DNA of 64,000 nt from Scenedesmus sp. PABB004 (GCA_014905635.1 CM026548.1:1364001-1428000), one strand, 5' to 3'. Positions 5,257 through 25,338 are shown, counted from the first letter of the stretch. Numbers and translations: made by a program. Notes: generated by a model from the sequence alone, not told the origin.

Positions 5257-5294
<38 letters not shown>

Positions 5295-6194: not shown

Positions 6195-6261
6195 GTGCGT
6201 AACGGCGCTGCGGTGGCTCGTGGGCCGCGGGGTCGGTCGCAAGAGCCTGTGGCGCCAAAAC

Positions 6262-6663
6262 TGCTGTTCGCTGCCGTCGGGCGCTGGGCCCGCGCGGCGG
6301 CTGCCTGGGCGGGTCTGCGGTGTCGCAGGGCCCACACGGGGGCCACGGGGCGATGCGTTCGATCGCGGTGGGCCAGCAGCGCAGCGGCGGCGGGCTCAGC
6401 GGCGCGCTCGCGCGGCTGCGTGCTGCGGCTGCCCTGGCCTGGCCTCCACGCGATGCGTGTGTGAGGGAGGCCCACGGGCGGCCGGGTGGTGGCTGTGCGC
6501 GCCGCCGGCCGCCGCGCGAACCGCGCGGGCCCCGCGCCCGCCCGACCGCCGCGCGCCGGTGCGGCAGCAAGCCGAGCGCGGCGGCGCCTGCACGGCGGCG
6601 GCGGTCAGCGCAGCAGCAGAGGGTCGTTGCAGCAGGGGCACGCGCGCCGCCGGCGCCCGCCGC
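6262..6663 (-). repeat. Element R, copy 1 (downstream of LRR copy 1, directly upstream of the SAND gene ATG)
   Basis: Aligns by eye to 8872-9281 (same orientation) and 21827-22256 (inverted), e.g. cctgctgcaac..ccctctgctgctgcgc and gacccgcccaggcagccgccgcgc. Confidence 0.9.
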
Positions 6664-6907
6664 AGCCCGCGACCAGCCGGCCAGCGCGCGCGCCTGCCCA
6701 CTCCGCAGCACGAGCCGCCGCGCCCATCCCAACTCAACTCGCCGCCGCAGCCACGCACATGCCCCGTGCGGCCAGCCACCCAACCACGCGCTGAGCTGCC
6801 CTGGCCGCCTCGCGGCGACAGTGCCGCCGCCAGGCGCGCCAAAGCCACCACCGTGCCCGCAGCTGCGGCGCCGGCCCGGCGGCACACTCTCCGTCCGGTG
6901 GGAAGGG

Positions 6908-8855
6908 TCAATACGTCACCACCACACTGCACTCGCTGCGCACCGCCTGGCGCGCCGCCTGGCGCACCGCCTCTTCCAGGTTGTACACCTGCAGCTCCCT
7001 GAGCCGCACCAGGGCGCTCAGGCAGTGCGCGTTGGCCACCGTGACTGCCGGCGCCGGGAGTCTCAGGTGCGTGAGCTGCGTCAGGCGCTTGCACAGCACC
7101 GGCAGGGCGGCGCCGGTCAGCGTGCTGTCCGAAACCTCCAGAGCCATCAGGCCGGGCAGGCGGCGCGCCACAGCACACAGCGCGCCGTCGTCGATGCGCC
7201 AAACGCAAAGGTCGGCGAGCGCCGGCGGCGCAAGCGCCTCGGCGGCCGCCGCGTCAAACACGCCAGAGGAGCGAAACCGGAAATTGTTCAGGCTGGGCAG
7301 CCGCGACAGCGCCGCCGTCACCGGCGCCAGCGACGCGGCCGGCTGAGGCGCGCCGTCCGCAGCCAGGGGCGGCGGCGCGAGGTGGATGCCGAGCAATTCA
7401 AACTGACGCAGCGCCGTCAGCTGGCCGAGCTCCGCGCCCAGCTCGGCCGCGCTCGGCAGCCCTCCCTCCTCTGCAGTGCCCTGAAGCTGGAGCATGGTGA
7501 GGCCGCGCAGCTGTGACAGGTGCGGCAGCAGGGCGCGCACCAGCGCGATGCTAAGGCCCACCAGCGGCAGCCGCGGCCACACCGGCGCCGCCGCATGCAG
7601 TACCTCGTCGATATCCTCATCATCGCCTGAATCGTCCTCCCACGAGTGCGAGTGGGAGTAATCCAGCTCCACGCTGCTGAGGCGCGCCAGGGCCGTGAGC
7701 CGGCCCAGCTCGTGCGCAGGCACCTGGCGGGCGTCCCCCAGGCGCAGCGCGCGCAGCCGGCTGAGCGCCAGCAGGGGCTCCATGCTGTCAATACAGTCCA
7801 CGGTCAGCTTCTCCAGGCTGGGCGGCAGCGCGTCACCCACGCCAGCGATATACGTGAGTGCAGTCAGCGCGGAGAGGTGGCGCAGGTCCCGGCCGGTGTA
7901 GGGTGGCGGCCCCACCCGGAAAGCGGTCGCTGCCAACTCGACCACGCCCGCCGGCAGGGCGCTCAGGCTGCCCTGAGTGCTAACGACCAGCCGCGTGAGC
8001 TGGTGGTGGCCTGCCAGCGCCGGCAGCAGGCGATGCACCTGGCCGGCCTCGTTGCCCAGCTCCAGCGAGCGCAGGGCCGTCAGGCGTGACAGCGTCGCCG
8101 CCAGGCGCGGCAGGTGCGGGGCGTCGCCACCCTCAAACAGCCAAGCCCTCAGGGACGTGAGGTGGCTGGCGGGCAGCTCCCGCAGCAGCGCCGCTGCAGG
8201 TGCTGCACCGACACATGAGCTGAACTCCAGCAGCCGCAGGGGCCGCGCCGCCGCCGCCGAGCGCAGCGCGGCTGCCACAGGAGCCGTGTCTGGGCTGTCC
8301 CAGACGTCCAGCGCGGCGAGGATGTGCGCGTGGCGCGGCAGCCAGCAGTCGGCGAACGACGCGGCCCTGGCGTGTCGCGGCCCAACACGCAGGCCCCAGC
8401 ACAGCGTGTCGACTGCGCGCGGGCGGCGGCAGGGACGTCAGGGGCAGCGACTGAGCGCGCTGGCCGCGCCAAGCACTGCGATTCAGCGCCCCGAGCCGGC
8501 AGCTGCCGCGCGCCGCCGCCGCCGCCGCGCCCGCTGGCGCCGCCGCCCGCACCCGCGGCGCGCGTGGCGCGGCTGGTCGCGAGCAGCTTGGCCACCACGC
8601 CCAGGTCTTCGTACACCGCCGAGTGCGCCAGCAGCAGCGACCAGGCGTCGTGCAGGGGAGCGGCCACAGCCTCCGCCGCGCCTGGCGGGGTGGCAGCAGC
8701 CGGCGGCGTGGGCGAGCGCGCCGGGCGTGGGCCTGCGGGGGCTGCCTGCCTGCCGCGGGCCACCGCCCCGGGCGTCCTGACGCTGCCACCACGCACGCCC
8801 CTCCCAGCCACGCACCCTGGGCGGCCTCGCGCTGCGCGGCGCGACGGGTGCGCAT
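6908..8855 (-). CDS. Leucine-rich-repeat (RNI-like) protein, copy 1, intact; two short 5' exons then one long LRR exon
   Basis: MRTRRAAQREAAQG|..LHDAWSLLLAH..|VDTLCWGLRV..WLPRHAHIL.., then repeated LxxLxxLxxLxL units (LSRLTALRSLEL, LSQLRGLTMLQL). TGA at 6908. Confidence 0.85.
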
Positions 8856-8871
8856 GGCGGCGCACGGGCGC

Positions 8872-9281
8872 TGCTGTCGGCGCTGCCGCGGCGCCTGGGG
8901 GCGCTGGGCCGGCGCGGCGGCTGCCTGGGCGGGTCGGCAGTGCCGCAGGGCACACACGGGCACCACGGGGCAGTGCGTTCGACCGCGGTGAGCGGCGCAG
9001 CAGCGGCGGCGGGCTCGGGCGCGCTCGTGCGGCTGCTTGCTGCGGCTGCCCTCCGGGGTCTGGAGGCGGCGTGTGTGTGTGCGGGAGGGAGGCCCACGGG
9101 CGGCCGGGTGTGCGGCTGTTCGCGCCGCCGCCGCGTGAACCGCGGGCCCCGCGCCTGTCCGCCTGCCGCGCGCCGGAGCAGCAACACGCCGGGCGCGCGG
9201 CGGCGGCTGTGCCGCGGCGGCGGCCAGCGCAGCAGCAGAGGGGCGTTGCAGCAGGGGCACGCGCGCCGCCGCACACTCCGC
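8872..9281 (-). repeat. Element R, copy 2 (between the HAD stop codon and the LRR copy 1 ATG)
   Basis: Direct repeat of 6262-6663; begins ~8-10 bp after the HAD TGA (9289-9291). Confidence 0.9.
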
Positions 9282-9288
9282 AGGGCGG

Positions 9289-11022
9289 TCAGGCGTCGGC
9301 GCCGGCCATGAGCGCGGCAAAGGCCGCGGCGTCGAGCAGGCGTATGCGCGGGTGCGCCGCCGCGGCGTCGCGCTCGGCGGGCGTGTTGTAGCCCCAGTCG
9401 ACCAGGAAGAGCGACCAGCCCTCCGCGCCGGGCGTCGCCGCGACCTGCGCCGCCCGCACGGCGAGGCGCGCCTCGGCGCGGCGCCCGGCGGCCCTTTGCT
9501 CGCCGCCGCCGCCCCGCCCCGCCGCGTGCCGCCCGGGCGCAGCGCACCTTTTCGAGCGTGGAGGCCTTGTCCTCGACAAACAGGCGCTGCACGGCGCCCG
9601 GGTGCGCGGCCGCGAGGCGCGCGAGCACGGCGGCCTTGGGCTCGCCGCTGAGCGTGGTCGAGTGGATGCGCTCCGCCGGCAGCGGCACGCCCGCCATGTC
9701 CCGGAGCAGCGTCTCGGTGTAGTGCGCCTGGCGAGTGTGTGTGTGTGTGGGGGGGGGGGGTGGGAGAGCCCCAGGGCGCGCGGCGGCCGGACCGTCGGCA
9801 GCGCCGCGGCGCGCCGTGCAGCCGGGGCGCGCCGGCGAGGCTGAGCCCGCCCCCGGCTCGAGCGGCGCTGCAGCCCCGAGCGGCGGCCGCGCCCGCCCGC
9901 GCACGCGCGCCCGCCACCGGCGCAGCAGCGGCCGCACCTGCTTGGTGGTGACCACGTAGACCTCGTCCGCCGCCGCCGCGGCCCGCACCGCGTCGGCGAC
10001 GCCGTCGTAGATGCGGTTGGGCGCGAGCCAGCCGGCCAGGTCCTCCGCGATCCACGCGTCCCGCACCGACCCAAACAGCGACACCAGCTGCGCCCGCGGC
10101 GGCGGCGCGCGACGGCGTGGGCGCGCGGTGGGCGCGCGGCGGCGGCGCGCGGCACGCAAAGACAGCGACCCCGGCCCCGGCGCCGTGCCCCGCCGCGCCG
10201 CGCCGCTCGCCTCGCCGCGGTCGAGGCCCCACTGCTGCATCTTGGCCGGCAGCATCGCGCCCCAGCAGCTCAGCATCTCCTCCACGCCCACGCCCTCGTA
10301 GAGGCACCGAATCTGGACGATGTTCTCATACCTGGGGCGCGGCGGGCCCAGCGCGGCTCACACACAGGGGAGGGAAGGCTGCTGCGCGCCGCCGCGGCGC
10401 GGCGCAGCGCAGCGCAGCGCGGCGCGGCGGTGCGGCGCGGAGCGCACCCCGTCTCGACGACCGGCCGCACCGCGCGCATCTGCTCGACCAGCCGCGGCTT
10501 GGCCGCCTCCGCGGCGGGCGTCTGGAAGATCTCCGGCCACTTGATCGCGGCGGCCTGCAAGCGGCGGCCGGCGCAGGTCGGCCGCCGCGGCGCGGGTCGG
10601 CGGGCCCGGGCGCATGCTGCGCGCCGTGCGCCGCGCGCCTTGAACGCAGACAGGCTGCTCTCGCCCACGGAGTCGCAGATCACGCTGCGGTGCGGGGGCG
10701 CGGCGGGGGCGGCAGGAGGTTGAGCACGACCGCCGAGCTGCTGCGGTGCCCGCGGAGTGCGGCAGCAGCGCCGCCGCTCACCCGTCAAAGTCCAGCGCTA
10801 TCAGGCGCTTGCCGGCCGCGGCTGTCGGCACGAGAGGGAGGAGGTGGCTGTGAGCGCGCGAACGCGGCCGGTGGGGCGACCCGGCGCGCACGCAAGCGCA
10901 CCTGCGACGGCCATTTTGGCGCTGCTGCTCCTCCTGCTGCTCCTGCTGCTCCTGCCCAGCGCCCCGCGCGGCGACGGCCCGCCCAGCCGCCAGCTGTGCC
11001 GCAGTGATGACGACAGTGCCAT
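9289..11022 (-). CDS. Plastid-targeted HAD-superfamily hydrolase (multi-exon)
   Basis: Ser/Arg-rich transit-like N-terminus MALSSSLRHSW. Motif I LIALDFDG|VICDS, then VYVVTTKQ, LFVEDK and LFLVDWGYNT, typical of the cyanobacterial/plant HAD family. Confidence 0.85.
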
Positions 11023-11512
11023 ACGGGGCAGCGCTGTCGAGGCGGCTGCGCGTCGGCGGCGGGCGGCGTGGGCGGCGCTGCCCGCGCAGAGCGCGGCGCG
11101 GTGGCGGCGCTGATCGGCCCGGCCTGCGCGAGAGCCGGCACGCAGGTGTGGGGAGCGGGGGCGAGCGCGCTGCCGAGCTCGGGCGCCCAGCGCCGCGCGG
11201 CGGGGTTCAGGGCTGGCGCCGAGCCGGAGCGGGAGAAGTCTCGCGTATTTACACCTCCCTGCCCTGTTATTGGTGAGGTCATGTTGGCCAACGTTGCTGG
11301 TCAACTGATTATTGCCACTCCAGCCCCCGGCGCGGCGTTGCAGCGGCAGCTTGTCCAGCTGCGCGACGGGCGCGTTGGTTGCTTGCGCAGCAACCGGCGC
11401 CCGCCCGTGCCATCCATCCAACACACTGTGCATCGCGTACGCCCACCTGAGGCCTGCGCCCGCCGTCACCCAATCACCGTGGCGGACGCCGCTCCCCGGC
11501 GCCGCGCCGCGC

Positions 11513-14500
11513 TCAGAAGGTGGTGGAGCTGCGCGCCGCCGCGCCGCCGCCGCGGCTGCTGCGCTCCGCCTCGAGGCTGGTCAGGCGCTCCACGAGCGCG
11601 CGGTTCTCAGCCATGAGGCACGACATGGCCTGGCAGGCGAGGCGGGGCAGGCGGGCGACCCGGCGGGGCGGTGGTGAGAGTGGTGAGAGTGTGTGGTCAG
11701 GCGGGCGGGGCCGGGCCAGCCTCCGCGCCCCGCGCGCCGCGCACGGCGCCGCCGCTGCCGCCGCTGCCGCGGCGTCCGCGCACCTGCTGCGCCGCGTCGA
11801 GCGCGCCCTTGGCGCTGCTGTACTCGTCGTACTCGAGGTGCGACGCCGCGCCGAGCTCGTCCTGCAAGGCCGCGCAGCACGCGCAGCACACGCAGCACGC
11901 GCAGCACGCGGCGCGCGGCGGGCGGGGTCAGGCCGCGCGCGCGCGCGCGCGGGCGCGGGCGCGGCGCGGCGTTGCGCGGCGGTGCGCTGCCGCCCCTTGG
12001 CGCAGCGCCGCGCGGGCCCCGGGCGCCGGCGCGCGCGCGCGACGCGCCTGCACGACCATGGGCAGCTGCTGCCCCGCCTCCTCGAACTGCGCGCAGAAGG
12101 CCACGTAGCGCGCGTACGAGGCGTCGAGCATCGCGTACAGCGAGTCGACCTGGTTGGGGTTTTGGGGATTGAGGAGGGTACAGGGTTCGGGGTTCAGGGT
12201 TTGGGGGCGAGCGGGGCGCGTGCAGCGGGAGAGGTGGCGGCGGCACGGCGCGGTCCCGCGCAGCCCTCTCTCCTCGCTGCCCTCCTGAACCCCGGGCGCG
12301 AGCCGCGCGGCGCGCACCCTGTCGCCGAGCAGGAGGCGCTTGAGCACGATGAGGTCGCTGTGCTCACGGTTGAGCGCGTACGCAGCGCCCCACCTGCACA
12401 CGCGGCGCGGCGCGGCGCGTGCTCGGCGGCAGCGCAGCGTGCGGCGCGCGGCAAGCGGCATGCGCGGCGCGGGCGAAAAGGGGGGAGGGAGGGCGGCGTG
12501 GGGCGTGGCGCGCACTTGTAGTCGCGCACGGGCTGCTCCGGCGCCTTGCCGCCCGCGAGGCCGAGGCCGCTGAGCACCGCCTCGTCCTTCACCTGAGAAG
12601 GGGGGGGCACGGAGGTTAGGGGTCAGGGCTGGCTGCGGGTCTGCCGCGGCCGCCGCGCGGCCGCCGCACGGCGCGGCGCGGCGCGGGGTTTAGGGCCCCT
12701 GCGGCGCGGCGCGGCTGGCACTGTGGCGCACCGCCTCGCTCTTGTTGGAGGTGATGACCGCGAGGGGCAGCGCCTCGGCGCTCAGGCCCAGCGCGGACAG
12801 CACGTCGTCGCCGAACGAAAAGGCCGCGTACTCGAGCGGCGGCAGCGGCGCCGCCTTGGCGTCCTTGGGCGCCGCCGCCGCGTAGGTCCCCGGCGACGCG
12901 AGGCGCGTGCGGACCTGCGCGCGCGGCGCGGCGGCGGCGTGCTGCGTGCCAGCCGCGGCCCGCGGGCCACCGCGCAACAACCACATCACCGCGGCGGCGA
13001 CGGCGGCGGCGGCGGCGGCGGTCGCGGCGGTCGCGGCGGGCCGCGACCGGGCGCGGCGGGGGTCGCGTCACCTCCTTGCGGAACGCGCGCAGCTCGTCGT
13101 CGGTCATGGTGTCGGCCTTGGCGATCACGGGGATGACGGTGACCTGGGGGTGGTTTAGGGTACAGGGTTTAGGGGGGCGGTGCACAGGGGGAGGGCGATG
13201 TTTAGGGTTCAAGGGTCGAACGGCGAGGGCGCGGGCCGCAGGGGACGGGCCCGGGGGGGAGGGCGTGCGGCGGGCGCTGCGCTGCGCTGCGCTGCGCCGC
13301 GCTGCGCTGCGCGGCCGCTGGCCGCACCAGCTGGCTGAGCGCGGAGAGCAGCACGAGGTCGACCTTCTTGAGCCTGTGGGGCGTGATGAAGTAGAGGCAG
13401 GCGGTCACGCTGTGCGACAGCTGCCCGCACATCGCGCTCTGCGTCAGGCTGCGCCCGCCCGCGAGCAGCGCGTAGTCCTGCGTGTGTGTTTTTTTTTGGG
13501 GGGGGGGGGGGGGGGCGGCGGGACCGGTCAGCAGGGACCGGCGGCGGCGCGCTCGCGCGCTCGCGCGCGCCCGCCGCGCGCATGCCCCCCCCCCTCGGGC
13601 GCCCCCGCGCGCGCGCGCGTGTGCCAGCCAACACACGCACCTTGGCGCGCTGTGTGAGGACGTAGTTGACCAGGACGCGGAGGTAGCGCACGAGGTTGAT
13701 GTCGTCGCTCCACCCGGGCATGTCCTGCGGCGCAGACCGGCGGCGGGGGGCTCAAAACCCCGGCTTGAAGCACCAGCTTGAAACATGGGCTGGCTGTGGG
13801 CGCTGGCGTTTGGGCGCGCGCACGCGCAAGTTGTGGCGGCGCGCGGGAGGGGCTGAGCGAGAGCCCCTCCCCCCCTCCCCGCCCTCCCGAACTGGCGCGC
13901 ACCTGCACGGACACGTGCAGGCGGCGGCCGGCCTCCTTGACGTCCATCGGCTCCAGCACCGTCCTCAGCGAGTCGGGGTCGGCCTGGGCGCGGCGCGCGG
14001 GGTTTGGCGGCCGGTGGCGCTCAGCGGGCTCAGTGGGAGGGGCGTCGGCCCGCGCGCTGGCCGGCGGTGGCGCCCCGCGCGCCTCGCGCCCGCCGGCGAT
14101 GGCGCCGTTGTCGTGCTGCCGTTCCAGTCACCTGGAAGTCGGCGAGGCTGGTGGAGCTGCCGTCGTGGGGCTTGTTGGCCGTGGTGTAGCTGGACACCAG
14201 GTTGCGGATGAACGTGGTCTTGCCCAGCCCGCTCTCGCCTGCGCGCGGGGCGTGTGCAGGGCGCGCGGGCGGGGCGCGCGGGGCGGGTGAGCGGCCGCCG
14301 GCCCCACGCGGGGAGCGCTGCCAGCAGCAGCGCTGCCGGCCGGGGCCGCAGCCAGCAGGGGGCATTTGAGCTTTAAGGGCTGCACCCGCCATGAAGTTCA
14401 CGGCGCCGCCGCTGGCTGCTGCTCACCGACGACCATGAAGTTCACGTAGGAGTCCAGCAGCCGCACGGGCACGCGGGGGCGGCTCTGCCACGCGGCGCGC

Positions 14501-15840
14501 GCGTCGGCGGCGCTGATGCCGTGCGCGGGCGCGGGCGCCGCGGGCGCGGGCGTGGGCGCCGCGGGGCGCGGCGCGGCGGGCGCGGCGCCGGCGGCCCGGG
14601 CCGGCGGCGCGAACGCCGACGACGGGGCCTGGGGGCGCAGCTCGGGGGCTGCGCGCGGAGGTGGGGGGGGGGGGCTCAGAGGGGAGGGGGCGCGCTGCGG
14701 CGTGCAGCCGCGCGTCGCGTGCAGCTGCGCAGCCCCGCCGCACGCACCCACGGCGCCGCTGACCACGGCGGGCTTGGCCGCCAGCTGCGTCGCCTTGGCG
14801 GCGGCCTCGGCCGCCAGCGACAGCGCCACCGGCGCGGGCGCCTGCGCCTTGGGCGCGACGGGGGCCGGCGCGGCGGCCTCCTTGGGCGCCGCCGGCGCCG
14901 GGGCGGGCTCCTGCGCCTTGGGCGCGGCGGGCGCGGGCGGCGCCGGCGGGGCCGGCGGGGCCGGCGCCGGCGCGGGCGGGGCCGGGGCCGGCGCGGCCGG
15001 GGCCGGCGCGGGCGCGGCCGGCGCGGGCGGGGCCGGCGCGGGCGCCGGCTTCTCCACGGGCTTGGGCGCGGGCGCCGCGGGCGCGGGCGCCACGGGCGCC
15101 GCGGGCGCCTTCTGCTCCGCCGCCGCCGGCTTGGGCGCGGGCTGCACCGGCACCTTGATCGGCGCGGGCGCGGGCGGCGCGGGGCGCACCGCCGCGGGCG
15201 TGGCGGTCGCGGGCGCGCCGCCGGTGGACGCGCTCGCCGTCTTGGGCGCGGGCGCGGCCTTGGCGGGCACGGGCGCGGGCGCGGCCTTGGCCGGCGCGGC
15301 CGCGGGCGCCGGCGCCGCCTTCGCGGGCGCGGGCGCGGCAGCCTTGGCCGGCTTGGCGGGCGCGGCCTTGGCCGCCTCCTTGGCGGGCTTGGCCTTGGCG
15401 GGCTTGGCCTCGCCGGCGCCGACGAGGCGCGCGAAGAGGCCGGGCTTGCGCGGCGCGGGCGCGGCCGCGGCGCCCTTGGCGGCGGCCGCGGCGGGCGTGG
15501 CAGCCGGGGCGGCGGGCGCCGCGCCCTTGACCACCATGCCGCCGTCCACGGCCGTCTTGCCTGCGCGCGGCGCGGTGCGGCGCGGCGCGGCGGCGCGGGG
15601 CGGGCGGCGGCGCTGAGCGGGGCGGGCTTGGGAGCAACGCGTCTCCCTGCCGGCTGGACGTAGCTCCACAGCGCTGCTGGCGAGCCGGCGGGCCGGCGCG
15701 GCGCCTGGGCGCGCGGGGCCAGCGCCGATGTCCCGGACGCCCCGCCTGCTGCGCCGCGCAGCTGCCGCGCCCAGCTCACTGGTCGGGGCCTCCTTCTTGC
15801 TCATCCCGAACAGGCCGGAGCCCTGCTTGGTGGGCGCCAT
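11513..15840 (-). CDS. Septin GTPase with long Pro/Ala/Lys-rich N-terminal extension and short C-terminal coiled coil (multi-exon)
   Basis: NFMVVG|ESGLGKTT (G1), DMPGW (G3), CLYFITPHRL, VIPVIAKADTMT (G4), RDYK|WG..HSDLIVLKRLL (septin unique element). Confidence 0.9.
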
Positions 15841-16160
15841 GCGCTGCGCTCGCGGCTGCGCGCCCTCAGCTCTGCAACTGCGGCCTGCGCAGCGGTCGCG
15901 CGCTGCGGGGCGCCTGGCCTGCCCTCGAGCTGCGTGTGGATGCTAGAGTGCGATGTGGCCGCGTGCGAGCGAGCTGGGGGCGGCGGTCGAGCGGGGCCGG
16001 GCGCGGTTCGCGCGCGCCGGGACCTCGCGAGCCGAAGCGCGGCCTCCCGATCACGCCCCAGACCCACGCGCGTTCACCGTGCAAGTCACAGACTGCTGGC
16101 GGTGATTGACAGGCTCGCAGCCCGCCGGCCGGGCAGCCAGCTCTCGCCACCGACCTCGCC

Positions 16161-18099
16161 TCACGCGCCGCAGGCCTGCAGCTGCCCCTCCAGCAGCTGC
16201 AGCGTCTCCTGCATGCCCAGCACCGCAGCCACCAGGCGAGCCTCCTCCTCCGCCGCGCCCGCGTCGCCGGCGCGCGTCGCGTGCTGCGCTGCGGCGGCGG
16301 CCGCGGGCGCCGGCTGGGCCGCGTCCGAGGCGCCGCCGCAGCCCCCCGGCGGCCGGTGCGCCTTGAGCTGCGGCGGCGGCGGCAACCCCGGCGCGCGCTT
16401 CTGCTGCTTGAGCTGCAGCAGCTCCCGCAGCCGCGCGTGACGCCGCTGCGCTGCGAGCTGCTGCCGCGCGGCCTGCCGAGCAGTCGCGCCCAGCGCGCCC
16501 GCCCCCGGCGGTGAGCGCCCGGACGGCCCCTGCCCAGGCGGGCTGCCCCCGCCCGGCGCGTCGGCCGGCCGCCCCTGCTGCTGCGCGGGCGGGAGGGGCT
16601 GCGCCTGGTCGCGCGGCCGCGGCGCGCCGGCCGCCGGCGCCGGTGGCGGCCCGCCAGCGCTGCGCGCCCGCCGTGCGGGGCCGCCGCCGCTGCTGTCGCG
16701 CCCCTGCAGCGCCTGCAGCTGGGCGTGCTGCTCCAGCAGGCGCTGCTCCAGCTTCAACACGTAGCTCTCACGCTGCGCGCAGCGGGCGGCGGCAACGGGG
16801 GCACCAACCTGACTGAGCGCCCCCACGCAGCGCACCCGGCGTCCGGTGCGCGCGTGCAGCGCAGCCCCCGGGCCGCCAGCGCCCGCGCCGCACCTCCTGC
16901 GCCGCCGCCGCCGCCTGCCGCTCCCGGGCCGCCAGTGCGTCGAGCCGTTGCTCCGCTGCCGCCAGGCGCTGCTGCGCCTGCGCTGCCGCACGCCCGAGGC
17001 GCGCGCGCTCGGCCGCCGCCGCCGCGGCCGCCGCCTGGGCCTCGCGCTCCGCCGCGGACAGCTGCTGCCGCAGCGCATCGGCCTGGCGCTCAAGCGCATC
17101 CCGCGCGCGCCGCAGCGCCGCGGCCTCCTGCGGCGAGGCGCAGAGTCGGCGCGCGGGCCGACGGCGGCGCGCCGCGCGGGCGCTGGCGGCTGGCGGCGCC
17201 TGCCGCCTCACCCTGTGCAGGCCGCCGTCGCCCTGCGCCGCCGCCGACGGCGCTTGCGGCGACGGCAGCCACGCAGGCGCGGCGGCACCGACCGCCGCGC
17301 CGGCGCCGGCCGTGGTGGCCGCCACGCTGAGCAGGCCCGCCTCCAGCTCTCGCACGCGTGTCTGCGCCCGCGCCCGGGGCGGGCGGGGCGCGCAGTGCGC
17401 GCGCTCGCTTGCCGCCTCCCCGCACCGAGCGCGCAGCAGGCCGCGCCGCCCCCCATAACCGCCGGCCCCACCTGCAGCTGCTGCGCGCGCCCGGCCTGCG
17501 CGACCAGCGTCCGGTTCTCGGTTGCCACGCGCGTCGCCAGGCCCGCCACGTGCGCAAGGGCGCCCTGCAGCTGCTGCAGCATGCCCTCCAGCGCCGCGAG
17601 GCGGCGGCCGCCGCCGCGCGGGGCTCCCTCGACGCCCGCCCGCAGCGCGCTGACCTGCGCCTGCAGCGCCGTGACCTGCGCGCGCGGGGCAGAGCGGGCG
17701 GTTCGCGCGCGGCGGCTCGCGCGCGGGCGGCGGCCAGCCGCCGCAGCGTGCCGCGCGCGTCGGCCGCCGCCGGGCGCGCGCCTTGGCGGCCAGCTGCTCG
17801 TTGTGCGGCGGCGACGGCGCCCAGCCGTCGCCCGCCACCGCCGCAGCAGCGGCCGCGGACGCCGCCGCGAGCGGCGAGCGGGGCGAGCGGGGCGGCTGCT
17901 CCCACGCAGGCGACGCACTGCCGCTGCGCGTCTGCTGCTGCTGCTGCGCCTGTTGCGCGGGGGAGCCGGGTCCGCACAGCAGCTCCACGCGCTCGTCGTC
18001 GGAAAGCGACTGCAAAAACGAAGGCGCCGCGAGCAGCGCCGCGACGCTCGGCGGCGGCGTGCTGCGCGGCGAGCGCCCGCCGCCGCTGCGCGGCCGCAT
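16161..18099 (-). CDS. Hypothetical coiled-coil protein (multi-exon)
   Basis: Spliceable exons with heptad-like text (VTALQAQVSALRAG, LERQADALRQQL, RESYVLKLEQRLLEQ); no family recognised. Confidence 0.55.
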
Positions 18100-18631
18100 G
18101 CTGGCTGTTGGGCCGGGGGCCTGTGGGCGCTCACGGCAGGGGAGCGGGTCGATGCGGGGCGCCGCTCGCCGCACGGCGGCGGCGCGCAGCGGCGGAGTTT
18201 TGGTTGCCCCGCGCGCGATGCGCGAGACCGTGGGCTGGCGGCGTCGGCAGAGGTCTGAGTAGTGGCGCGGTCGGGGACTGGGCGGGCGGTGCGGAGTGGC
18301 GGCGGCGGCGGCGACAGCCCCGTTCGCGCGTCGCGGCGGTGCAGGGCGCGGCGCGCTGCCTGTCCAGCCGGCGAGCTGCCAGTCCAGCCCAGCCAGCGCC
18401 CGACGGTGTGCCCGCTCCCGTCGACGCCGGGGGCCGCCCTCGCCAGGCCGCGCACTCGGGCTGAGCGCTCGCAGCGCCAGGCTGCCCGCCCCGCCAATCT
18501 GCGCGCCCAGCAGCCTCGCGCCCGCCGCCGGTCGCGCGACGCGCTCGATCCTGGCTGGCCCCGCGCGCCGCGCGGTCCAGGAGCTGCTGCCCCGCCTCGG
18601 GGCCGCGCGCGGCGGCCCGCAGGCGCCCGCC

Positions 18632-18780
18632 ATGACCGGCCTGGCGTCGCTCCTTGGTCGCGGGGGCCGGCCGGGCGGCTCCGGGCGGCCGGCAGCAGCG
18701 CCGCAGCACGGCGGCGGCGGGCCGGCAGCAGCGGCGGCGGCGGCGCCGCCGCGCCCCCGCTGCGCCGCCTGGCTGGCGCC

Positions 18781-18837
<57 letters not shown>

Positions 18838-21819
18838 CTGGGGCGCTCCTGTGCCGCCCGCCGCAGCCGGCGGCCTGGCCCGCCACGCGGTGGCCGCGGG
18901 GGTGCAGTGGCAGGCGCCGGCCGTGCCGCGCTGCGCGCGGGCGGTCAGCTGCAGCAGCAGCACCGGCTGGGCCAGCAGCGGCCTGCCCCCCGCCGGCGGC
19001 GCCCGTGCGCGGGCGCGGCGCTGCGCCGCGTCGGCGGGCGACGCCGCGCCGCCCGAGGCGCAGCACGCCGGCGTCGGCACGGTCGCGCTGCCGCCCGAGC
19101 AGCAGTCGCAGCAGTCGTCGCAGCAGCAGTCGTCGCAGCAGCAGTCGTCGCAGCAGTCGCAGGGCTCGCCCGGTAGCTCGGGCGAGGAGGACGAGGCGGG
19201 CGGCGGCGGCGGCGAGCAGGGGGCGGGGGGCGTCGTGCAGCCCGCCACGCAGCCGATGTACAGCCCGCTGCACTATGATGTGCTGGAGTTTGTCCGCCAG
19301 GTGCAGCGCGGCGCGGCGCGGCGTGATGCGGCGCGGCGCGGCGGGCCCGCGCCAGCGGCACAGCCAGCGGGCCGGCGGCGCGGGGCCGCGCGGCGCGGGG
19401 CCGCGCGGCGCGCGGGTGCCACGCCGAGGCCACGCCGACCGCCGCGCCGCGCCGCGCCGCGCCGCGCCCGCCAGGTCGTGCCCACCGCGGCGGAGCGCGC
19501 CGAGAAGCAGCGTGTCATCCAGTGGTGCGCCGCCCGCCGCGGGCGGCGCCGCGCCCGCGGCTCCCCCCCGCCGCCGCCGCGCGCGCCGCCCGCCGCCCAC
19601 GCTGCCCGCGCCGCCCCGGCTCACCCGCCGCCGCGCACACGCGCGCCGCCGCTGCGCGCCCCAGCGTCGCCGCCGCGACCAAGCGCAGCTTCGAGGGCGT
19701 CCCCGGCGTGCGCGTGCAGCCGTTTGGGTCGTTTGTGAACGGCCTGTCGGCCTGGAACAGCGACGTCGACCTCGTGGTCACCGGCCTCGCCACGCCCTCG
19801 CGCGCCACGGGCGGCTTCAGCGCGCCAGACAAGCGCGTCGTGTACCGCGCCCTCGAGCGCATCGCGGCGGCGCTGCGCAAGTGAGGGCCCAGGCGGCGCG
19901 CCGCCGGGGCGCCGGGGCGCCGGGGCGGAGGGGCGGGCGCCGCCGCGCTGCCGCTCCGCCCCTCCCACCACCGCCAACACGCGCCCACCCGCGCCCGCAC
20001 ACGCACCCACGCCCGCGCCCGCCCGCCCCCCCCCCGCGCCCGCCCGCGCCCGCCCGCCCCGCGCTCTCTCCCTCCGCCGCCAGGCACCGCAAGGTGTCCA
20101 TCCGCAAGCTCGTCATCATCCGCACCGCCCGCATCCCCATCATCAAGCTCGAGACCTCCTCCCGCGTCGTCGCCGACATCAGCCTCGGCGACGCGAGCGG
20201 CCCCAAGGCCGCGCACTACGTCGGCCAGCAGGCGCGCCGCGCCGCCGCGCGCCGCCCGCCGCCCCGCCCACCGCCCACCGCCCCGTGCCCGCCCGCAACA
20301 CCCACACCCGCCCACCGCTCGCCCACCCGCTCGCCCACACCCACCCACCCGCCCACACCCGCCCGCGCACACCGACGCGCAGGCGGCCGCGTACCCGCCG
20401 CTGTCGTCGCTGGTGCTGGTGCTCAAGGTCTTCCTCCGCACCCACGGGCTCAACGAGGTCGCCAACGGCGGGCTCAGCAGCTTCGCGCTCACCAACATGG
20501 TCCTCGCGCACCTCCAGCAGGAGCTCAAGGCGCGCGCGCGCGCGCGCCGCCGCACGCCGCCGCGCCGCCGCGCCGCCGCGCCGCGCCCGCGCGCGCCGCG
20601 CCGCCCGCCCGCCCGCGCTGCCCGCCGCGCCGCGCCGCCCTCATAACCTCCGCCGCCCGCCCGCCCCCGCCGCGCCCTTGTTTCGCCCCTGCCTGGCCCT
20701 CGTTTCGCCCCGTCCCCGCCTTGCAGGAGGGCCACGACGTGTACGACCTGGGCGAGAGCCTCTACGCCTTCCTGCTGCGCTTCGGGGACGAGTTCGACAC
20801 GCGACGCGTGCGCGCGCGCGCGGGGCGCGGGGAGCGCGGGCGGCGCGGGCGCGGGCGCGGGCGGCGCGCAGGGGTGGCGCGCGGGCCTGTGGCGCGCCAG
20901 GGCGGCGGAAGGAGGAGCGGCGGCGGGGGCGGCTGCGGCGGCGGTCGGCGGGCTCGGGCGGGCCGCGGCCGACGTGCCCCCGCCGCTGTGCCGCCGCCGC
21001 AGGACGCGGTGAGCGTGGCGCTCGGCGGCTGCGTGCCGCGCGGCGAGCTGGGGCACCTCGAGGGCGCCGACGGCAGCGGCGAGCGGCTGCTGCTGGAGGA
21101 CCCGCTCACGGGTGCGCTGGCGCGGGGGCGCGCGGGAGCGGGTGGGGTCTCGCGGCCGTCGGCCGCCGCCGCCGCCGTCGCACCCCCCCCCCGCGCCCCA
21201 CGCGCCCCGCCGCCGCGCCCCGCCCGCGCCGCCGCTCTTCCCGCGCCGCCGCCGCGCCGCCGCCAGGCCGCGACGTCGCGTCGGGCAGCTACCGCATCGC
21301 GTCGGTGCAGCTCGCGTTCAGCCGCGCCGCGCGGTGCCTCGAGGCGCTCGCGCAGTCCCGCGGCGCGCCCGGCTGCGGCGGGCGGGGGCGGCTGAACTAC
21401 TTGGAGGCCCTCTTTGACGTGTCGCGCGCGCTCGACCGCTCCGCGGCGCCGCGCCGCGGCGGCGGCTGGGGCGGCCCCGGCGGCGTGCCGCCCGGCCTCA
21501 AGGCGGGGCTGGGCGCCGAGTTCTTCGTGGTGGGCCAGGGCACGCGCTACGTGGTGAGGAGGGGGAGGCGCGAGGGGGAGCGCGCCGCGGGTCGGCGCGC
21601 CGTCCTGCAAGCGGCTGGCCGGTGCGCTTGCCTGGCCGGCTGCTGACGCGCGCGCGCGCGCGCGCGGCGCCGCTGCAGGACCCGCTGGATCAGGCGGAGC
21701 TGTCGCCCGGCGACGACGTGGAGGTGCCGCTGGAGGGCGACGACTGGGACGACGAGCTCGAGGCGCTGCTGTACGGCGAGCGCGGCGGCCGGGGGCGCCG
21801 GCGGCGCGGGCCGCGATGA
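18632..21819 (+). CDS. Non-canonical poly(A) polymerase / terminal nucleotidyltransferase, TRF4/PAPD5-like (multi-exon)
   Basis: SPLHYDVLEF, PFGSFVNGLSAWNSDVDLVV (Pol-beta GS..DxD), ARIPIIKL..DISL, LKVFLRTHGLNEVANGGLSSF, LLLEDP. Confidence 0.9.
18782..18835 (+). repeat. (CAG)18 microsatellite, polyQ in the N-terminus of the TRF4-like protein
   Basis: Perfect CAG run read directly. Confidence 0.95.
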
Positions 21820-21826
21820 CCCGCGC

Positions 21827-22256
21827 GCGGCGGGTGCCGGCGCGCGCCTGTGCAACATCCCTCTGCTGCTGCGCCGGCCGCCGCCGCCGCCCAGCTGCCG
21901 CCGCCGCCGTGCAGCTGCCGCCGCCGCGCACTCGGCTCGCTGCCGCACCGGCGCGCGGCAGGCGGGCGGGCGCGGGGCCCGCGGTTCACGCGGCGGCCGG
22001 CGGCGCGCACAGCCGCACCCGGCCGCCCGTGGGCCACCCTCCCGCACACGCGCACCGCCTCCAGGCCCGGACGGCAGCCGCAGCACGCAGCCGCGCGAGC
22101 GCGCAGCCGAGCCCGCCGCCGTGCTGCTGCACCGCTCACCGCGGTCGAACGCACTGCCCCGCGGCGCCCGTGTGGGCCCTGCGACACCGCCGACCCGCCC
22201 AGGCAGCCGCCGCGCCGGCCCAGCGCCCTCAGGCGCCGCGGCAGCGCCGACAGCAG
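21827..22256 (+). repeat. Element R, copy 3 (between the TRF4-like stop codon and the LRR copy 2 ATG)
   Basis: Reverse complement of 8872-9281 and 6262-6663; starts ~8 bp after TGA 21817-21819. Confidence 0.9.
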
Positions 22257-22271
22257 CGCCCGCGCGCCGCC

Positions 22272-24262
22272 ATGCGCACCCGGCGCGCCGCGCGGCGCGA
22301 GGCCGCCCAGGGTGCGTGGCTGGGAGGGGCGTGCGTGGCAGCGTCAGGCCCGCCAGGGGCGGTGGCCCGCGGCAGGCAGGCCGCCCCCGCAGGCCCACGC
22401 CCGGCGCGCGCCCACGCCGCCCGCCGCTGCTGCCACCCGCCGCCCGCCAGGCGCGGCGGTGGCTGCGGCGGGGACCCTGCACGACGCCTGGTCGCTGCTG
22501 CTGGCGCACCCGGCTGTGTGCGAGGACGTGGGCGTGGTGGCCAAGCTGCTCGCGACCAGCCGCGCCACGCGCGCCGCGGGTGCGGGCTGCGGCGCCGCGG
22601 CAGCGGGCGCGGCGGCGTCGCGCCACGCGTCAGCTGCCGGCTCGGGGCGCTGAATCGCGGTGCTTGACGCGGCCAGCGCGCTCGGCGGCTGCCCCTGACG
22701 TGCCCGCCGCCGCCTTTGCCGCCGCCGCCGTTGCTGCTGCTGCGTCGCGCGCAGTGGACACGCAGTGCTGGGGCCTGCGCGTTGATGGCAAGTGCATCGA
22801 GCTCCAGGCAGAGCCGTTCACCAACTGCTGGCTTCCGCGCCACGCGCACATCCTCGCCGCGCTGAACGTCAGGCAGCACCCAGACGCGGCAGCTGTGGCA
22901 GCCGCGCTGCGCACGGCGGCGGCGGCGCGGCCCCTGCGGCTGCTGGAGTTTGCCGTTTGCGCCCAGCTGGGCCCTGCGGCGGCGCTGCTGCAGGAGCTGC
23001 CCGCCAGCCGCCTCACGTCCCTGGGGCTTGAGGTGCGCGAGGGCAGCGCCGTCTCGCACCTGCCGCGCCTGGCGGCGGCACTATCACGCCTCACGGCCCT
23101 GCGGTCGCTGGAGCTCGACGACGACACCAACGGCAAGGAAGTGCACCGGCTGCTGCCGGCGCTGGCGGGCCACAGGCAGCTCACGCGGCTGGGCGTCAAC
23201 GCCCAGGACGGCCTGGGCGCCCTGCCGGCGAGCCTGGTGCAGCTGAGTTTGTACAACGGCGATGATGACGAGCCCTCAGACACCGCGGTCGACCTGCGCC
23301 ACCTCACCGCGCTGACCGGACTCACCTACACCGCTGGCGCGGGCGACGCGCTGCCGCCCAGCCTGGAGGCGCTGGACGTGGAGTGTGTTTACAACACATA
23401 GCCCCTGCTGGCGCTCACCCGGCTGCGCGAGCTGTCCCTGCGGCACGCCAGCGGGATACCTCCGCACGAGCTGGGCCGGCTCACCGCCCTGGCGCGCCTC
23501 AGCAGCATGGATCTGGGCTACACGTGGGAGACGGACGCCGTGAGCATGGAGGCGCTGCTGGCGGCGGCGCCGGTGTGGCCGCGGCTGCCGCTGGTGGGCC
23601 TGCGCGGCGTCCGGCTGGCGCGTCCCATGCTGCCGCACCTGTCACAGCTGCGCGGCCTCACCATGCTCCAGCTTCAGGGCGCTGCAGAGGAGGGGGGGCT
23701 GCCGAGCGCGGCCGAGCTGGGCGCGGCGCTCGGCCAGCTGACGGCGCTGCGCGACCTTGGTTTGATCGGCGTCCACCTCGCGCCGCCGCCCCTGGCTGCG
23801 GACGGCGCGCCCCAGCCGGCGGCGTCGCTGGCGCCGGTGACGGCGGCGCTGTCGCGGCTGCCCAGCCTGGGCAGATTTGAGCTCTCCTGCAGCCCTGGCG
23901 TGTTTGACGTGGCGGCCGCCGAGGCGCTTGCGCCGCCGGCGCTCACTCGTCTGTGGTTGGGGTACCGCAGCATCGAAGACGCCGCGCTGTGTGCTGTGGC
24001 GCGCCGCCTGCCCGGCCTGATGTCCCTGAGAGTTTCGGACCATGACAGCACGCTGACCGGCGCCGCCCTGCCGGTGCTATGTGAGCGCCTGACGCAGCTC
24101 ACGCACCTGAGAGTCCCGGCGCCGGCAGTCACACTGGCCAACGCGCACTGCCTGAGCGCCCTGGTGCGGCTCAGGGAGCTGTGGGTGTATCCGCTGGCAG
24201 AGGCGGAGCGCCAGGCGGCGCGCCAGGCAGTGTGCAGCGAGTGCCGCGTGGTGGCGTTTTGA
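22272..24262 (+). pseudogene. LRR protein copy 2, inverted paralog of 6908-8855, with in-frame TAG at 23399-23401
   Basis: Same exon/intron layout as copy 1. ECVYNT*PLLAL aligns to DCIDSMEPLLAL (GAG in copy 1, TAG here). The frame continues intact to TGA 24260-24262. Confidence 0.8.
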
Positions 24263-24520
24263 CCCCTGCCACCGGCCGGAGAGTGTGCCGCCGGGCCGGC
24301 GCCGCCCCCCGGCTGCGCCGACGCAGCTGCGGGGCGGCGGCTTTGGCTGGCGGCACTGTCGCCGCCAGGCGGCCGGGGCAGCTCAGCGCGTGGTTGGGTG
24401 GCTGCACGAGGCGCATGTGAGGCTGCGGCGGCGAGTTGAGTTGGACGCGCCCGCGTGCGTGCTGCGCGCGCGTGCGGGGCGGCGGGCGGCGGGCGCGCGC
24501 TGGCCGGCTGGTCGCGGGCT

Positions 24521-24593
24521 GCGGCAGGTGCCGGCCGGCGGCGCGCGCGCCTGCTGCAACTCCCCTCTGCCGCTGCGCTGGCCGCCGCCGCCG
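24521..24593 (+). repeat. Element R, partial copy 4 (first ~70 bp) downstream of LRR copy 2
   Basis: gcggcaggtgccggccggcggcgcgcgcgcctgctgcaactcccctctgccgctgcgctggccgccgccgccg matches the R start. It is followed by a 23-bp tandem duplication (ctcaggagggtcgcgtgcggcgg x2, 24614-24659). Confidence 0.8.
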
Positions 24594-25338
24594 GGGGGTG
24601 CTGGCTGGCTGCGCTCAGGAGGGTCGCGTGCGGCGGCTCAGGAGGGTCGCGTGCGGCGGTTGCACACACCGCCGCGACAACCCAACGCCCCCTCCCCCCG
24701 CAGCGCCTGCGGGCTGCGTGCGTTGGCGTCGGCCCAGGTCGCGGCCGCGCGCTGGTCGGTCGGTCAGTCAGCGAGCGCCGAGCTCCCCGCCCCGCCCCGC
24801 AAGAGAAAGAGAGGCCGCCGCAGCGGCCGCCCCGCGCGCCGCAGCGCGGTCGGGGGCTGGCACCACGCCCCCACCACCAGCAGCTCTGCGAAGAGAGACC
24901 CGTCCGTGCGCAGAGGCTCCGTGTCAATTCAAAGCGCGCCGCACGCCGCCCGCCGCCAAGCCGTCCGCTGCCGAGTGCACGCGTCCTACCTATCGCAGTG
25001 CCCGCCCAGGCGCTTCTACTGTACACGCACGCAGGCCCCCCGTCTACACGCAGGCCCGCCCGCGCAGCAGGCAGTGCGCGCGCCGGCAGCGCACGCGGCA
25101 GGCGACCGCGCCACGCGCCGCGCAGCGGCCGCGCAGCGAGGCGCAGCGGGGCGCCGCCGCCGCCGGCGCGGCCCGAGGCGATGCAGTCATGCCCCGCCCG
25201 CACTGGCGCGGGCGGGCAATCACGGCGGCGCGCGCGCGCGCCTGCACAGGTGGTGCAAGCAGTGCTGCCGGCCGCCAGAGCGCGGCGGCGGCGCGGGCGC
25301 CGCGCCGGCCCGGCCGGGCCGGCGCGGCGCGGGGGGCC

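What the first reader, a model, noticed from the sequence alone, without database searches (positions are those of the whole stretch)
6262..24593. Repeat-bracketed LRR cassette (R-LRR-R) that starts immediately after host stop codons
Seen: a ~400-bp non-coding element R at 6262-6663 and 8872-9281 (minus) and 21827-22256 (plus), plus its first ~70 bp at 24521-24593. Both LRR genes run R, LRR, shared 3' flank, R. All four copies begin at about the same sequence (gcggcgggYgccggcggcgcgcg..cctgctgcaac). Both upstream copies start ~8-10 bp after the TGA of unrelated genes (HAD 9289-9291; TRF4-like 21817-21819). R carries TGCAA near its 5' end, one base from the chlorophyte TGTAA poly(A) signal, and ends just upstream of an ATG (both LRR genes; the SAND gene ~70 bp on). 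Inference: R is a portable terminator-plus-promoter module that supplies the host gene with a 3' end and drives a cargo gene, so cargo can insert into a compact genome without breaking neighbours. No transposase, reverse transcriptase or terminal inverted repeat is visible, so movement would need a trans-acting factor or a circular intermediate with recombination.
Basis: partly seen in the sequence, partly recalled or inferred. Interest (0 to 1): 0.8.

Follow-up and report, generated by a model that had tools for sequence, protein, structure and literature searches.

The report
Duplicated LRR gene with repeated spacer
A fast-evolving leucine-rich-repeat gene of a very GC-rich, intron-rich green-lineage alga was copied together with the whole spacer in front of it, once next to itself and once in reverse 12.5 kb away; this looks like ordinary local gene duplication, not a new mobile cassette.

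Summary
A ~2.7-kb unit (spacer R, a three-exon LRR gene, 3' flank F, then R again) lies at 9283-6261 (minus). A second copy lies at 21821-24593 (plus) and ends in a 75-bp R stub. The two copies are 83.5% identical over 2761 bp. R is found 4 times and nowhere else in the window. R is the whole spacer between the upstream gene's stop codon and the LRR ATG. It starts 1-6 nt after two unrelated stop codons. One of these is the native end of a HAD hydrolase.

The claim that R is portable is not supported. All copies belong to one duplicated LRR unit. The R stub in copy B faces a convergent gene and drives nothing. R is no better conserved than the neighbouring introns, and the identity pattern is mosaic, which fits gene conversion. 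I found no inverted termini, target duplications, mobile-element proteins, RNA family or excess RNA fold.

The LRR pair has dN/dS about 1 with only in-frame indels, so it is a diversifying paralog pair.

The genome-wide test and the RNA test could not be run: no genome is held and no RNA run was listed.

The neighbouring orphan gene is not SAND. Its conserved module folds like a tyrosine-recombinase core-binding domain, with no catalytic domain found.

The parts
9289..9450 (-). Last exon and native TGA stop (9291-9289) of a HAD-superfamily hydrolase gene, directly upstream of RA1
   Evidence: 75% identity over 51 aa to P0010, which one source (jgi) names a phosphoglycolate phosphatase-like HAD hydrolase. 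The alignment ends one residue before the end of both proteins. Strong codon periodicity runs up to the stop.
8871..9283 (-). RA1: R copy filling the spacer between the HAD stop and the LRR_A ATG
   Evidence: Starts 5 nt after the TGA and ends 15 nt before the ATG at 8855.
6908..8855 (-). LRR_A gene. Predicted exons 8855-8816, 8681-8553 and 8412-6908 (stop included), 557 aa, intact.
   Evidence: GC3 periodicity. GTGCG donors and CAG acceptors; the frame closes in both copies only with this model. Pfam LRR_14 E 3.7e-9, 36.2 bits, below the cutoff of 40. The exon borders are inferred.
6666..6907 (-). F_A: 3' flank shared with copy B (80.7% identity)
6261..6665 (-). RA2: second direct R copy, after LRR_A and 66 nt before the ATG of the next gene
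   Evidence: (D14, D17). Core identity is 87.7% to RA1 and 89.4% to RB1.
4953..6194 (-). One module folds like a tyrosine-recombinase core-binding domain.
21679..21819 (+). Predicted last exon and TGA (21817-21819) of the upstream gene at copy B (the 'TRF4-like' gene)
   Evidence: Periodicity up to the stop. Acceptor read from the sequence. An MTPAP-like palm domain lies upstream at 19327-19881, 26.5 bits vs cutoff 27. That this exon belongs to that gene is inferred.
21821..22256 (+). RB1: R copy filling the spacer between that stop and the LRR_B ATG. It carries a ~23-nt internal insertion relative to RA1 and RA2.
22272..24262 (+). LRR_B gene. Predicted exons 22272-22311, 22451-22579 and 22755-24262, 558 codons with one in-frame TAG at 23399-23401.
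   Evidence: 70% aa identity to LRR_A over 510 aa.
24263..24518 (+). F_B: 3' flank shared with copy A
24519..24593 (+). RB2: stub holding the first ~75 nt of R. Homology stops inside a (GCC)n tract.
   Evidence: There is no residual R homology in 24594-25340 beyond shuffle levels.
24594..25341 (.). Spacer without coding signal, then the stop (25341-25339) of a convergent minus-strand gene
   Evidence: No Pfam hit on the plus-strand ORFs here.

Best explanation
R-LRR-F-R is a remnant of ordinary local segmental duplication in a young, fast-evolving LRR gene pair. It is not a dedicated mobile module. The repeat unit is the LRR gene with its entire upstream spacer R and its 3' flank F, with a period of 2618-2620 bp.

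Inferred history:
1. Locus A became repeated in tandem, either as an array later trimmed to 1.15 units or by copying R in front of the next gene.
2. A piece spanning one unit plus the first 75 nt of the next R was then copied in inverted orientation 12.5 kb away, behind the stop codon of an unrelated gene.
3. Later gene conversion homogenised the 5' part of the two copies and the R copies.

R is the native intergenic spacer. By position it must carry the upstream gene's 3'UTR and poly(A) region and the LRR promoter and 5'UTR. That is why a copy including all of R can survive in a compact genome. The breakpoints lie in ubiquitous GC-rich simple motifs (CGGCGGCGCG and (GCC)n), which suits microhomology-mediated or unequal recombination.

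Shown: the anatomy, the divergence pattern and the absence of mobile-element features. Inferred: the order of events, the regulatory content of R and the breakpoint mechanism.
For: 1. All 4 R copies in 64 kb belong to the one duplicated unit. Homology between A and B is collinear through R, both predicted introns, all exons, F and the R stub.
2. B ends 75 nt into the second R. B therefore descends from a template that already had R-LRR-F-R, and its right breakpoint sits inside R, as expected for a non-specific segmental copy.
3. RB2 faces a convergent gene, so it has no 'driving' role.
4. Identity is mosaic. R rest 93.5%, exon 1 94.5%, intron 1 89.2%, exon 2 91.5% and intron 2 91.4%, against exon 3 82.6% and F 80.7%. 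R does not differ from the introns (p 0.17) but does differ from F (p 8e-6). The 5' ~770 bp as a block is younger, which is the signature of gene conversion and not of R-specific constraint.
5. RA2 is 10.6-12.3% diverged from the R1 copies. That is less than the 17-19% of the unconverted zone although RA2 must be older, so the R copies evolve in concert.
6. The LRR pair has dS 0.198, dN 0.212, ratio 1.07. Every gap run in the 500-codon protein alignment (about 10) is in frame. Both gene models close in frame. This is a coding, diversifying pair of the kind LRR clusters produce.
7. No TIRs, no TG..CA termini, no target-site duplication. No transposase, RT or integrase domain in 129 ORFs scanned. 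No Rfam family or tRNA.
8. The boundary motifs are common in the window. CGGCGGCGCG occurs 86 times outside R, and CCGCCGCCGC occurs well over 100 times.
9. Near-identical short contigs of both LRR copies occur in two public runs of one study, so both copies are real and distinct (table 8).
Against: R begins 5 nt after the HAD stop and 1-6 nt after the other gene's stop. The F|R junction begins at the same R position. Three junctions therefore share one R start. Under uniform random breakpoints this is unlikely, roughly 1% each by my estimate, which is an inference made after the fact.

A test for hidden homology upstream of RB1 was inconclusive: 0 of 200 dinucleotide shuffles reached the RB1/RB2 score, but 3.3% of random genomic segments did, and RB1/RA2 showed no signal.

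Getting R-LRR-F-R from a plain tandem duplication needs an extra deletion or a separate copy of R.

Whether R occurs elsewhere in the genome is unknown.
Confidence: 0.66

Rival explanations
1. R is a portable terminator-plus-promoter module that moves a cargo gene, for example as an R-LRR-F circle that integrates by homologous recombination into another R or behind a stop codon. It gives the host gene a 3' end and the cargo a promoter.
For: R equals the whole spacer at three places. Three junctions share one R start, which abuts two unrelated stop codons, one of them shown to be native. Single-crossover integration of a circle would give exactly R-LRR-F-R without an extra deletion (inference). 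TGCAAC is kept in 4 of 4 copies including the stub. UGCAA is reported as a UGUAA-like pentamer near some Chlamydomonas poly(A) sites (PMC4025486, one passage seen).
Against: There is only one cargo and one locus family in the 64 kb. The RB2 stub shows a non-specific breakpoint inside R. R is no more conserved than the introns. No recombination-site-like structure was found. No catalytic recombinase was found. TGYAA follows only 5 of 25 other candidate terminal stops. No other R was found in any collection that could be scanned, although these do not hold this genome.
Confidence: 0.1
2. R is an inter-ORF spacer of polycistronic transcripts (HAD-LRR, TRF4-like-LRR, LRR-orphan gene), as described for other green algae. 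On this view the LRR gene rides on the upstream gene's transcript and needs neither terminator nor promoter.
For: The ORFs are collinear with 433, 452 and 713 nt between them. Published medians are 212-260 nt for polycistronic pairs against about 3.3-3.4 kb for other collinear pairs in C. reinhardtii and C. zofingiensis (PMC7896298, passages seen).
Against: This genome is compact overall. For example, convergent stops lie about 290 nt apart at 52254 and 52546, so short spacers do not discriminate. The LRR ORFs are long, whereas that paper describes polycistronic ORFs as small. No transcript data were available.
Confidence: 0.05
3. R-LRR-R is an LTR-type or other transposon-derived element that captured an LRR gene.
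For: Direct ~400-bp repeats flank a coding interior. LTRs combine promoter and poly(A) functions (established knowledge).
Against: No TG..CA termini and no target-site duplication. No gag, RT or integrase domain. The interior keeps two predicted introns. The ATG lies 15 nt after R, leaving no room for a primer-binding site.
Confidence: 0.02
4. Assembly artefact: joins at the R copies were mis-made, so the adjacency of R to the HAD gene, the TRF4-like gene or the orphan gene is not real.
For: The source looks metagenome-derived and extremely GC-rich. None of the contig pieces listed for the public runs spans an R boundary; only 16 of 1785 pieces are listed.
Against: The R copies differ by 8-12% along their whole length with no chimeric switch. 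Both LRR copies are independently seen as near-identical pieces.
Confidence: 0.03

Closest known systems
Birth-and-death evolution of clustered LRR genes (tandem or inverted paralogs, unequal crossing-over, gene conversion), as known from plant NLR and RLP clusters (recalled general knowledge; no paper read here)
   Same: Two linked LRR paralogs. Homology covers coding and flanking DNA. Identity tracts are mosaic. dN/dS is about 1 with in-frame indels. One copy carries a premature stop.
   Different: Only two copies are seen. The repeat unit starts within a few nt of a neighbour's stop codon and includes the complete spacer. The host is a very GC-rich alga, and the LRR family has only two weak relatives (28-31% identity) in 5.8e9 proteins.
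Repeat-flanked genes of Leishmania that form circular amplicons at direct repeats and linear amplicons at inverted repeats (PMC4028189, PMC4256157; search listing and start of abstracts only)
   Same: A gene bracketed by direct repeats, plus an inverted copy nearby. In principle this geometry allows excision as a circle or inverted-repeat rearrangement.
   Different: No amplicon, circle or copy-number evidence here. The Leishmania repeats are genome-wide families, whereas R is known only at this locus.
LTR retrotransposons and solo LTRs
   Same: Direct repeats that would combine 3'-end and promoter functions flank a coding interior.
   Different: No LTR termini, target duplication, primer-binding site or gag/pol. 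Introns are retained.
Polycistronic loci of green algae (PMC7896298)
   Same: Collinear ORFs separated by a few hundred nt.
   Different: The spacers are longer than the published medians. The ORFs are large. No transcript evidence.
Integron cassettes
   Different: No catalytic recombinase domain and no attC-like structure. The cassette carries its own spacer and introns. This is an intron-rich eukaryotic genome.

Membership tests
Local segmental duplication in an LRR gene cluster with gene conversion | Paralogous copies linked on one chromosome segment, with homology collinear through coding and non-coding DNA | tested here: met
   83.5% over 2761 bp, collinear from R through the R stub. tblastn finds exactly two LRR loci in the window.
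Local segmental duplication in an LRR gene cluster with gene conversion | Mosaic identity tracts not explained by coding constraint | tested here: met
   The 5' block including the introns is 89-95% identical, against 81-83% for exon 3 and F. R vs introns p 0.17; R vs F p 8e-6.
Local segmental duplication in an LRR gene cluster with gene conversion | Repeat confined to the locus (no dispersed copies) | not testable with these tools
   No genome is held. There are only 4 copies in the window. The public collections scanned do not hold this organism.
LTR retrotransposon or LTR-bounded element | TG..CA termini and a 4-6 bp target-site duplication | tested here: not met
   R starts CTGCGG or GCGCGG and ends ACAGCAG. 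The flanks ACCGCC and TTTTGG differ.
LTR retrotransposon or LTR-bounded element | gag, RT or integrase coding capacity, or an intron-less interior | tested here: not met
   Only LRR_14 matches the interior. No such domain in the 129 ORFs scanned. Two predicted introns are conserved in both copies.
MITE, SINE or other dispersed non-autonomous element | Terminal inverted repeats or a pol III/tRNA-derived head | tested here: not met
   Only GC-rich low-complexity inverted matches, and these differ between copies. No tRNA and no Rfam family.
MITE, SINE or other dispersed non-autonomous element | Many copies in unrelated contexts | not testable with these tools
   No genome.
Integron-like site-specific cassette system | Adjacent tyrosine recombinase with a catalytic domain | tested here: not met
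   The orphan gene has only a core-binding-like fold. No Phage_integrase or any other Pfam hit at E<=5 on 12 ORFs between 2592 and 6194. Of its 6 relatives, 5 gave no Pfam hit and one a weak SAP match; none has a recombinase domain.
Integron-like site-specific cassette system | Structured recombination site at the cassette boundary | tested here: not met
   The R 5' ends fold no better than shuffles, z -1.06 to +1.35. No conserved inverted repeat.
Green-algal polycistronic locus | One transcript spanning both ORFs | not testable with these tools
   No RNA run was listed.
Chlorophyte TGTAA-type poly(A) signal in R | Motif recurrently placed downstream of stop codons in this genome | tested here: inconclusive
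   TGTAA occurs 7 times on both strands in 64 kb. TGCAA occurs 39 times against about 25 expected. TGYAA lies within 400 nt of 5 of 25 non-R candidate terminal stops; the candidates include internal exons.
LRR protein (Pfam LRR_14) | Score above the Pfam gathering threshold | tested here: inconclusive
   36.2 bits, E 3.7e-9, cutoff 40. An LxxLxL pattern is visible in the translation. The best PDB sequence hit is an LRR receptor kinase at E 0.099.
Tyrosine-recombinase core-binding (SAM-like) domain, for the orphan gene | Fold match clearly above unrelated helical bundles | tested here: inconclusive
   [not shown]

The most novel reading that the evidence does not exclude
R is a self-contained intergenic module that combines the 3'-end signal for whatever ORF precedes it with a promoter and 5'UTR for whatever follows. 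It lets a rapidly diversifying LRR gene be re-inserted by recombination, possibly through R-LRR-F circles, directly behind stop codons in a compact algal genome. The neighbouring gene family, whose modules fold like tyrosine-recombinase DNA-binding domains, might be a trans-acting partner. This would be a eukaryotic counterpart of a gene-cassette system.
Probability: 0.07. Interest if true: 0.75.

Novelty: new member of a known kind. Interest (0 to 1): 0.3.

Why it matters
As read here, it is a clean small example of how a gene duplicate survives in a compact genome. The copied piece includes the whole upstream spacer, so the new copy brings its own promoter and gives the gene it lands behind a ready-made 3' region. 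After that, the paralogs diversify (dN/dS about 1) while their non-coding 5' parts are kept alike by gene conversion. That is useful for annotation but not surprising.

It would matter much more if the same R turned up at other loci with other cargo, since no eukaryotic 'terminator-promoter cassette' system is known to me (from recall; I ran no literature search on this point). The unexplained point worth remembering is that three junctions share one R start, and that start abuts two unrelated stop codons.

Tried and rejected
- Whole-genome search for R: impossible, because no genome is held.
- R 5' motif scanned in metagenome contigs (1 hit, GC 57%, 29-nt match), genome contigs (2 bacterial MAG hits, 28-29 nt) and viral contigs (0 hits). 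All hits are chance matches, and the source organism is not in these collections.
- Sequencing runs: two freshwater-metagenome DNA runs of one study with small shares (0.08 and 0.06). No RNA holder was listed.
- Reads laid at 80% likeness gave only short contig pieces. The joints had sides of 20-25 nt in GC-rich repeats and are not trustworthy. No listed piece bridges an R boundary, and no empty-site joint of about 2619 nt is among the 15 joints listed (32 more were not shown).
- The R bins had the lowest summed depth. The tool states that this depth is no copy number, so I draw nothing from it.
- Earlier scan notes: none were relevant.
- Rfam and tRNA scans: nothing.
- RNA folding of the four R 5' ends: no excess structure.
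- R-specific conserved blocks of 12-24 nt occur nowhere else in the window.
- Residual R homology after the RB2 stub: at shuffle level.
- Homology of the outer flanks of A and B: only short low-complexity tblastx matches.
- F-box reading of LRR exon 2: this was my impression only, and Pfam gave nothing relevant at E<=10.
- NCBIfam on the HAD and TRF4-like exons: nothing.
- A weak nhmmer match of the R 5' part after the GLE1 stop (E 7.4) is not significant.

Full report
CONTEXT.
The window is 72-83% G+C in every 2-kb bin. Coding frames change every few hundred bases. Pfam domains are split over neighbouring ORFs: fatty-acid desaturase, prolyl oligopeptidase, GLE1, AFG1 ATPase, septin, MAPEG, and the green-lineage or plastid-linked CAAD and DUF1995. 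It is therefore an intron-rich, compact eukaryote, most likely a green alga. No whole genome is held for it.

OBSERVATION.
The repeat structure is real.
- BLASTN of 6000-9600 against the window gives 6593-9228 vs 24593-21894 (83.5% over 2761), 8899-9283 vs 6279-6665 (83.3% over 396), 6279-6609 vs 22228-21894 (87.4% over 342) and 9214-9283 vs 24591-24519 (87.8% over 74). Everything else is low-complexity.
- A profile of the three full copies finds four copies (E 2e-114 to 4e-8) and nothing else credible.
- The 5' motif matches 4 of 4 copies exactly and nothing else at up to 3 mismatches. Expected by chance: 0.01.
- My coordinates are RA1 9283-8871 (-), RA2 6665-6261 (-), RB1 21821-22256 (+) and the RB2 stub 24519-24593 (+).
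- Non-triplet indels among the copies show that R is non-coding.

ANATOMY.
Reading copy A on the minus strand:
- The upstream gene ends with TGA at 9291-9289.
- R starts 5 nt later and runs to 15 nt before an ATG at 8855.
- A model with exons 8855-8816, 8681-8553 and 8412-6908 closes the frame at 557 aa. It uses GTGCG donors and CAG acceptors.
- The same model fits copy B (22272-22311, 22451-22579, 22755-24262; 558 codons), apart from one in-frame TAG at 23399-23401. The exon borders are inferred.
- The large exon hits Pfam LRR_14 below threshold (36.2 bits against 40). It has only two weak relatives, 28-31% identical, among 8000 scored candidates.
- After the stop come 242 nt of flank F, then RA2, then 66 nt, then the ATG (6194) of an orphan gene.

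In copy B:
- R starts 1-6 nt after a TGA at 21817-21819 that closes a strongly periodic exon.
- After LRR_B and F only the first ~75 nt of R remain. Homology stops inside a (GCC)n tract.
- The next 745 nt show no coding signal, and then a convergent gene ends at 25341. RB2 therefore precedes nothing.

THE NEIGHBOURS.
- The upstream gene of copy A is a HAD-superfamily hydrolase. Its last exon is 75% identical to P0010 (name given by a source). The alignment ends one residue from the end of both proteins, so this stop codon is native.
- The upstream gene of copy B has a below-threshold MTPAP-like palm domain.
- The outer flanks of A and B are unrelated.

DIVERGENCE.
Identity between A and B, by region:
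- R 5' part 81.3%
- R rest 93.5%
- 5'UTR tail plus exon 1 94.5%
- intron 1 89.2%
- exon 2 91.5%
- intron 2 91.4%
- exon 3 82.6%
- F 80.7%
- R stub 86.3%

R is not better kept than the introns beside it (Fisher p 0.17). The whole 5' block is better kept than exon 3 and F (R vs F p 8e-6, R vs exon 3 p 3e-7). This is what a gene-conversion tract gives, and it is not R-specific constraint.

Core identities among the R copies are RA1-RB1 91.6%, RA2-RB1 89.4% and RA1-RA2 87.7%. B carries an R2 stub, so the R1/R2 duplication predates the A/B split. Even so, RA2 is closer to the R1 copies than exon 3 or F are between A and B. The R copies therefore evolve in concert.

Exon 3 has dS 0.198, dN 0.212 and a ratio of 1.07. 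All gaps in the 500-codon alignment are whole codons. The genes are or recently were coding, and they are diversifying.

IS R MOBILE OR SPECIAL?
I found nothing that points to a dedicated mechanism.
- No consistent inverted termini.
- No TG..CA ends or target duplication.
- No Rfam family or tRNA.
- No excess RNA structure at the R 5' ends, z -1.06 to +1.35.
- No transposase, reverse transcriptase or integrase domain in 129 ORFs scanned in three Pfam calls: 76, 12 and 41.
- The conserved R blocks occur nowhere else in the window. The boundary motifs, in contrast, are ubiquitous: CGGCGGCGCG occurs 86 times outside R. This would suit microhomology-mediated or unequal recombination (inference).

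THE POLY(A) IDEA.
TGCAAC is kept in all four copies. UGCAA is reported as a UGUAA-like pentamer near some Chlamydomonas poly(A) sites (PMC4025486, one passage seen). PMC1868727 does not mention it in its main text. In this window TGTAA occurs only 7 times on both strands, and TGCAA 39 times against about 25 expected. Of 29 candidate terminal stops, 9 have TGYAA within 400 nt. Four of those 9 are the R-linked ones, which leaves 5 of 25 others. The signal is plausible for R but is not shown to be general. No RNA run was available.

WHAT STAYS ODD.
Three junctions (HAD|RA1, upstream gene|RB1, and F|RA2 with its descendant F|RB2) share one R start, and two of them abut stop codons.

I tested whether the homology of RB1 really extends further upstream into the coding tail.
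- Against RB2 it beats 200 of 200 dinucleotide shuffles.
- However, 3.3% of random genomic segments score as high, and RA2 gives no signal.
The result is inconclusive.

Survivorship can explain part of the coincidence (inference). A copy that starts at the very beginning of the spacer brings a complete 3' region for whatever ORF it lands behind. The post-hoc probability under uniform breakpoints is still low.

BEST READING.
This is ordinary local segmental duplication of an LRR gene unit: a tandem step, then an inverted copy 12.5 kb away, followed by gene conversion. R is the native spacer, and it necessarily holds the neighbour's 3' region and the LRR promoter and 5'UTR. My confidence is about 0.66.

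A polycistronic reading is possible but untested; the spacers are 433-713 nt against published medians of 212-260 nt for polycistronic pairs (PMC7896298, passages seen). An LTR-type origin is essentially excluded.

SIDE FINDING.
The orphan gene after RA2 has no Pfam match and no word-index relatives. It does have 6 HMMER relatives among 1.84e9 representatives (E 1e-31 to 8e-4). These are Q-rich proteins, most with several copies of a ~100-aa helical module.

An AlphaFold model of the module (pLDDT 84.4, pTM 0.74) finds no Foldseek hit at E<=0.001. In a Foldseek-independent search of 48,161 chains, the top hits are:
- then XerA, lambda Int, XerD and Cre

Z stays under 8, a level the tool warns helical models can reach by chance. 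The fold assignment is therefore likely but not proven. No catalytic domain was found. I see no evidence that this gene acts on R.

Noticed in passing
[not shown]
   Followed up: partly
window 23399-23401 (+): LRR_B has a single in-frame TAG where LRR_A has GAG. Contigs of two public freshwater runs laid here read G at 23399 (all laid depth in X1, 8.8 of 13.3 in X2). At 80% likeness these may include the A copy or other paralogs, so I could not tell whether this is a strain polymorphism or a pseudogene allele.
   Followed up: partly
window 21879-21938 (+) and 24613-24660 (+): RB1 carries a ~23-nt insertion relative to RA1 and RA2, in a repeated GCTGCCGCCGCCGCCGTGCA-like tract. Just after the RB2 stub there is a 23-nt tandem repeat (GCTCAGGAGGGTCGCGTGCGGCG, two copies). 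Both are signs of slippage in the GC-rich simple tracts where the repeat boundaries lie.
   Followed up: no
whole window: TGTAA, the usual chlorophyte poly(A) signal, occurs only 7 times on both strands in 64 kb that hold 20 or more genes. This very GC-rich alga may use another 3'-end signal.
   Followed up: partly
window 14400-15900: An 83% G+C stretch is full of degenerate GCGGGC and GGCCGG direct repeats (families D1-D5) and lies inside long ORFs on both strands. It is probably an Ala/Pro/Gly-rich low-complexity coding region. I did not examine it.
   Followed up: no
window 52254 (+) and 52546 (-): The candidate stop codons of two convergent genes (ribosomal protein L31-like and GLE1-like) lie only about 290 nt apart. 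This shows how compact the spacers are and implies very short or overlapping 3'UTRs.
   Followed up: no
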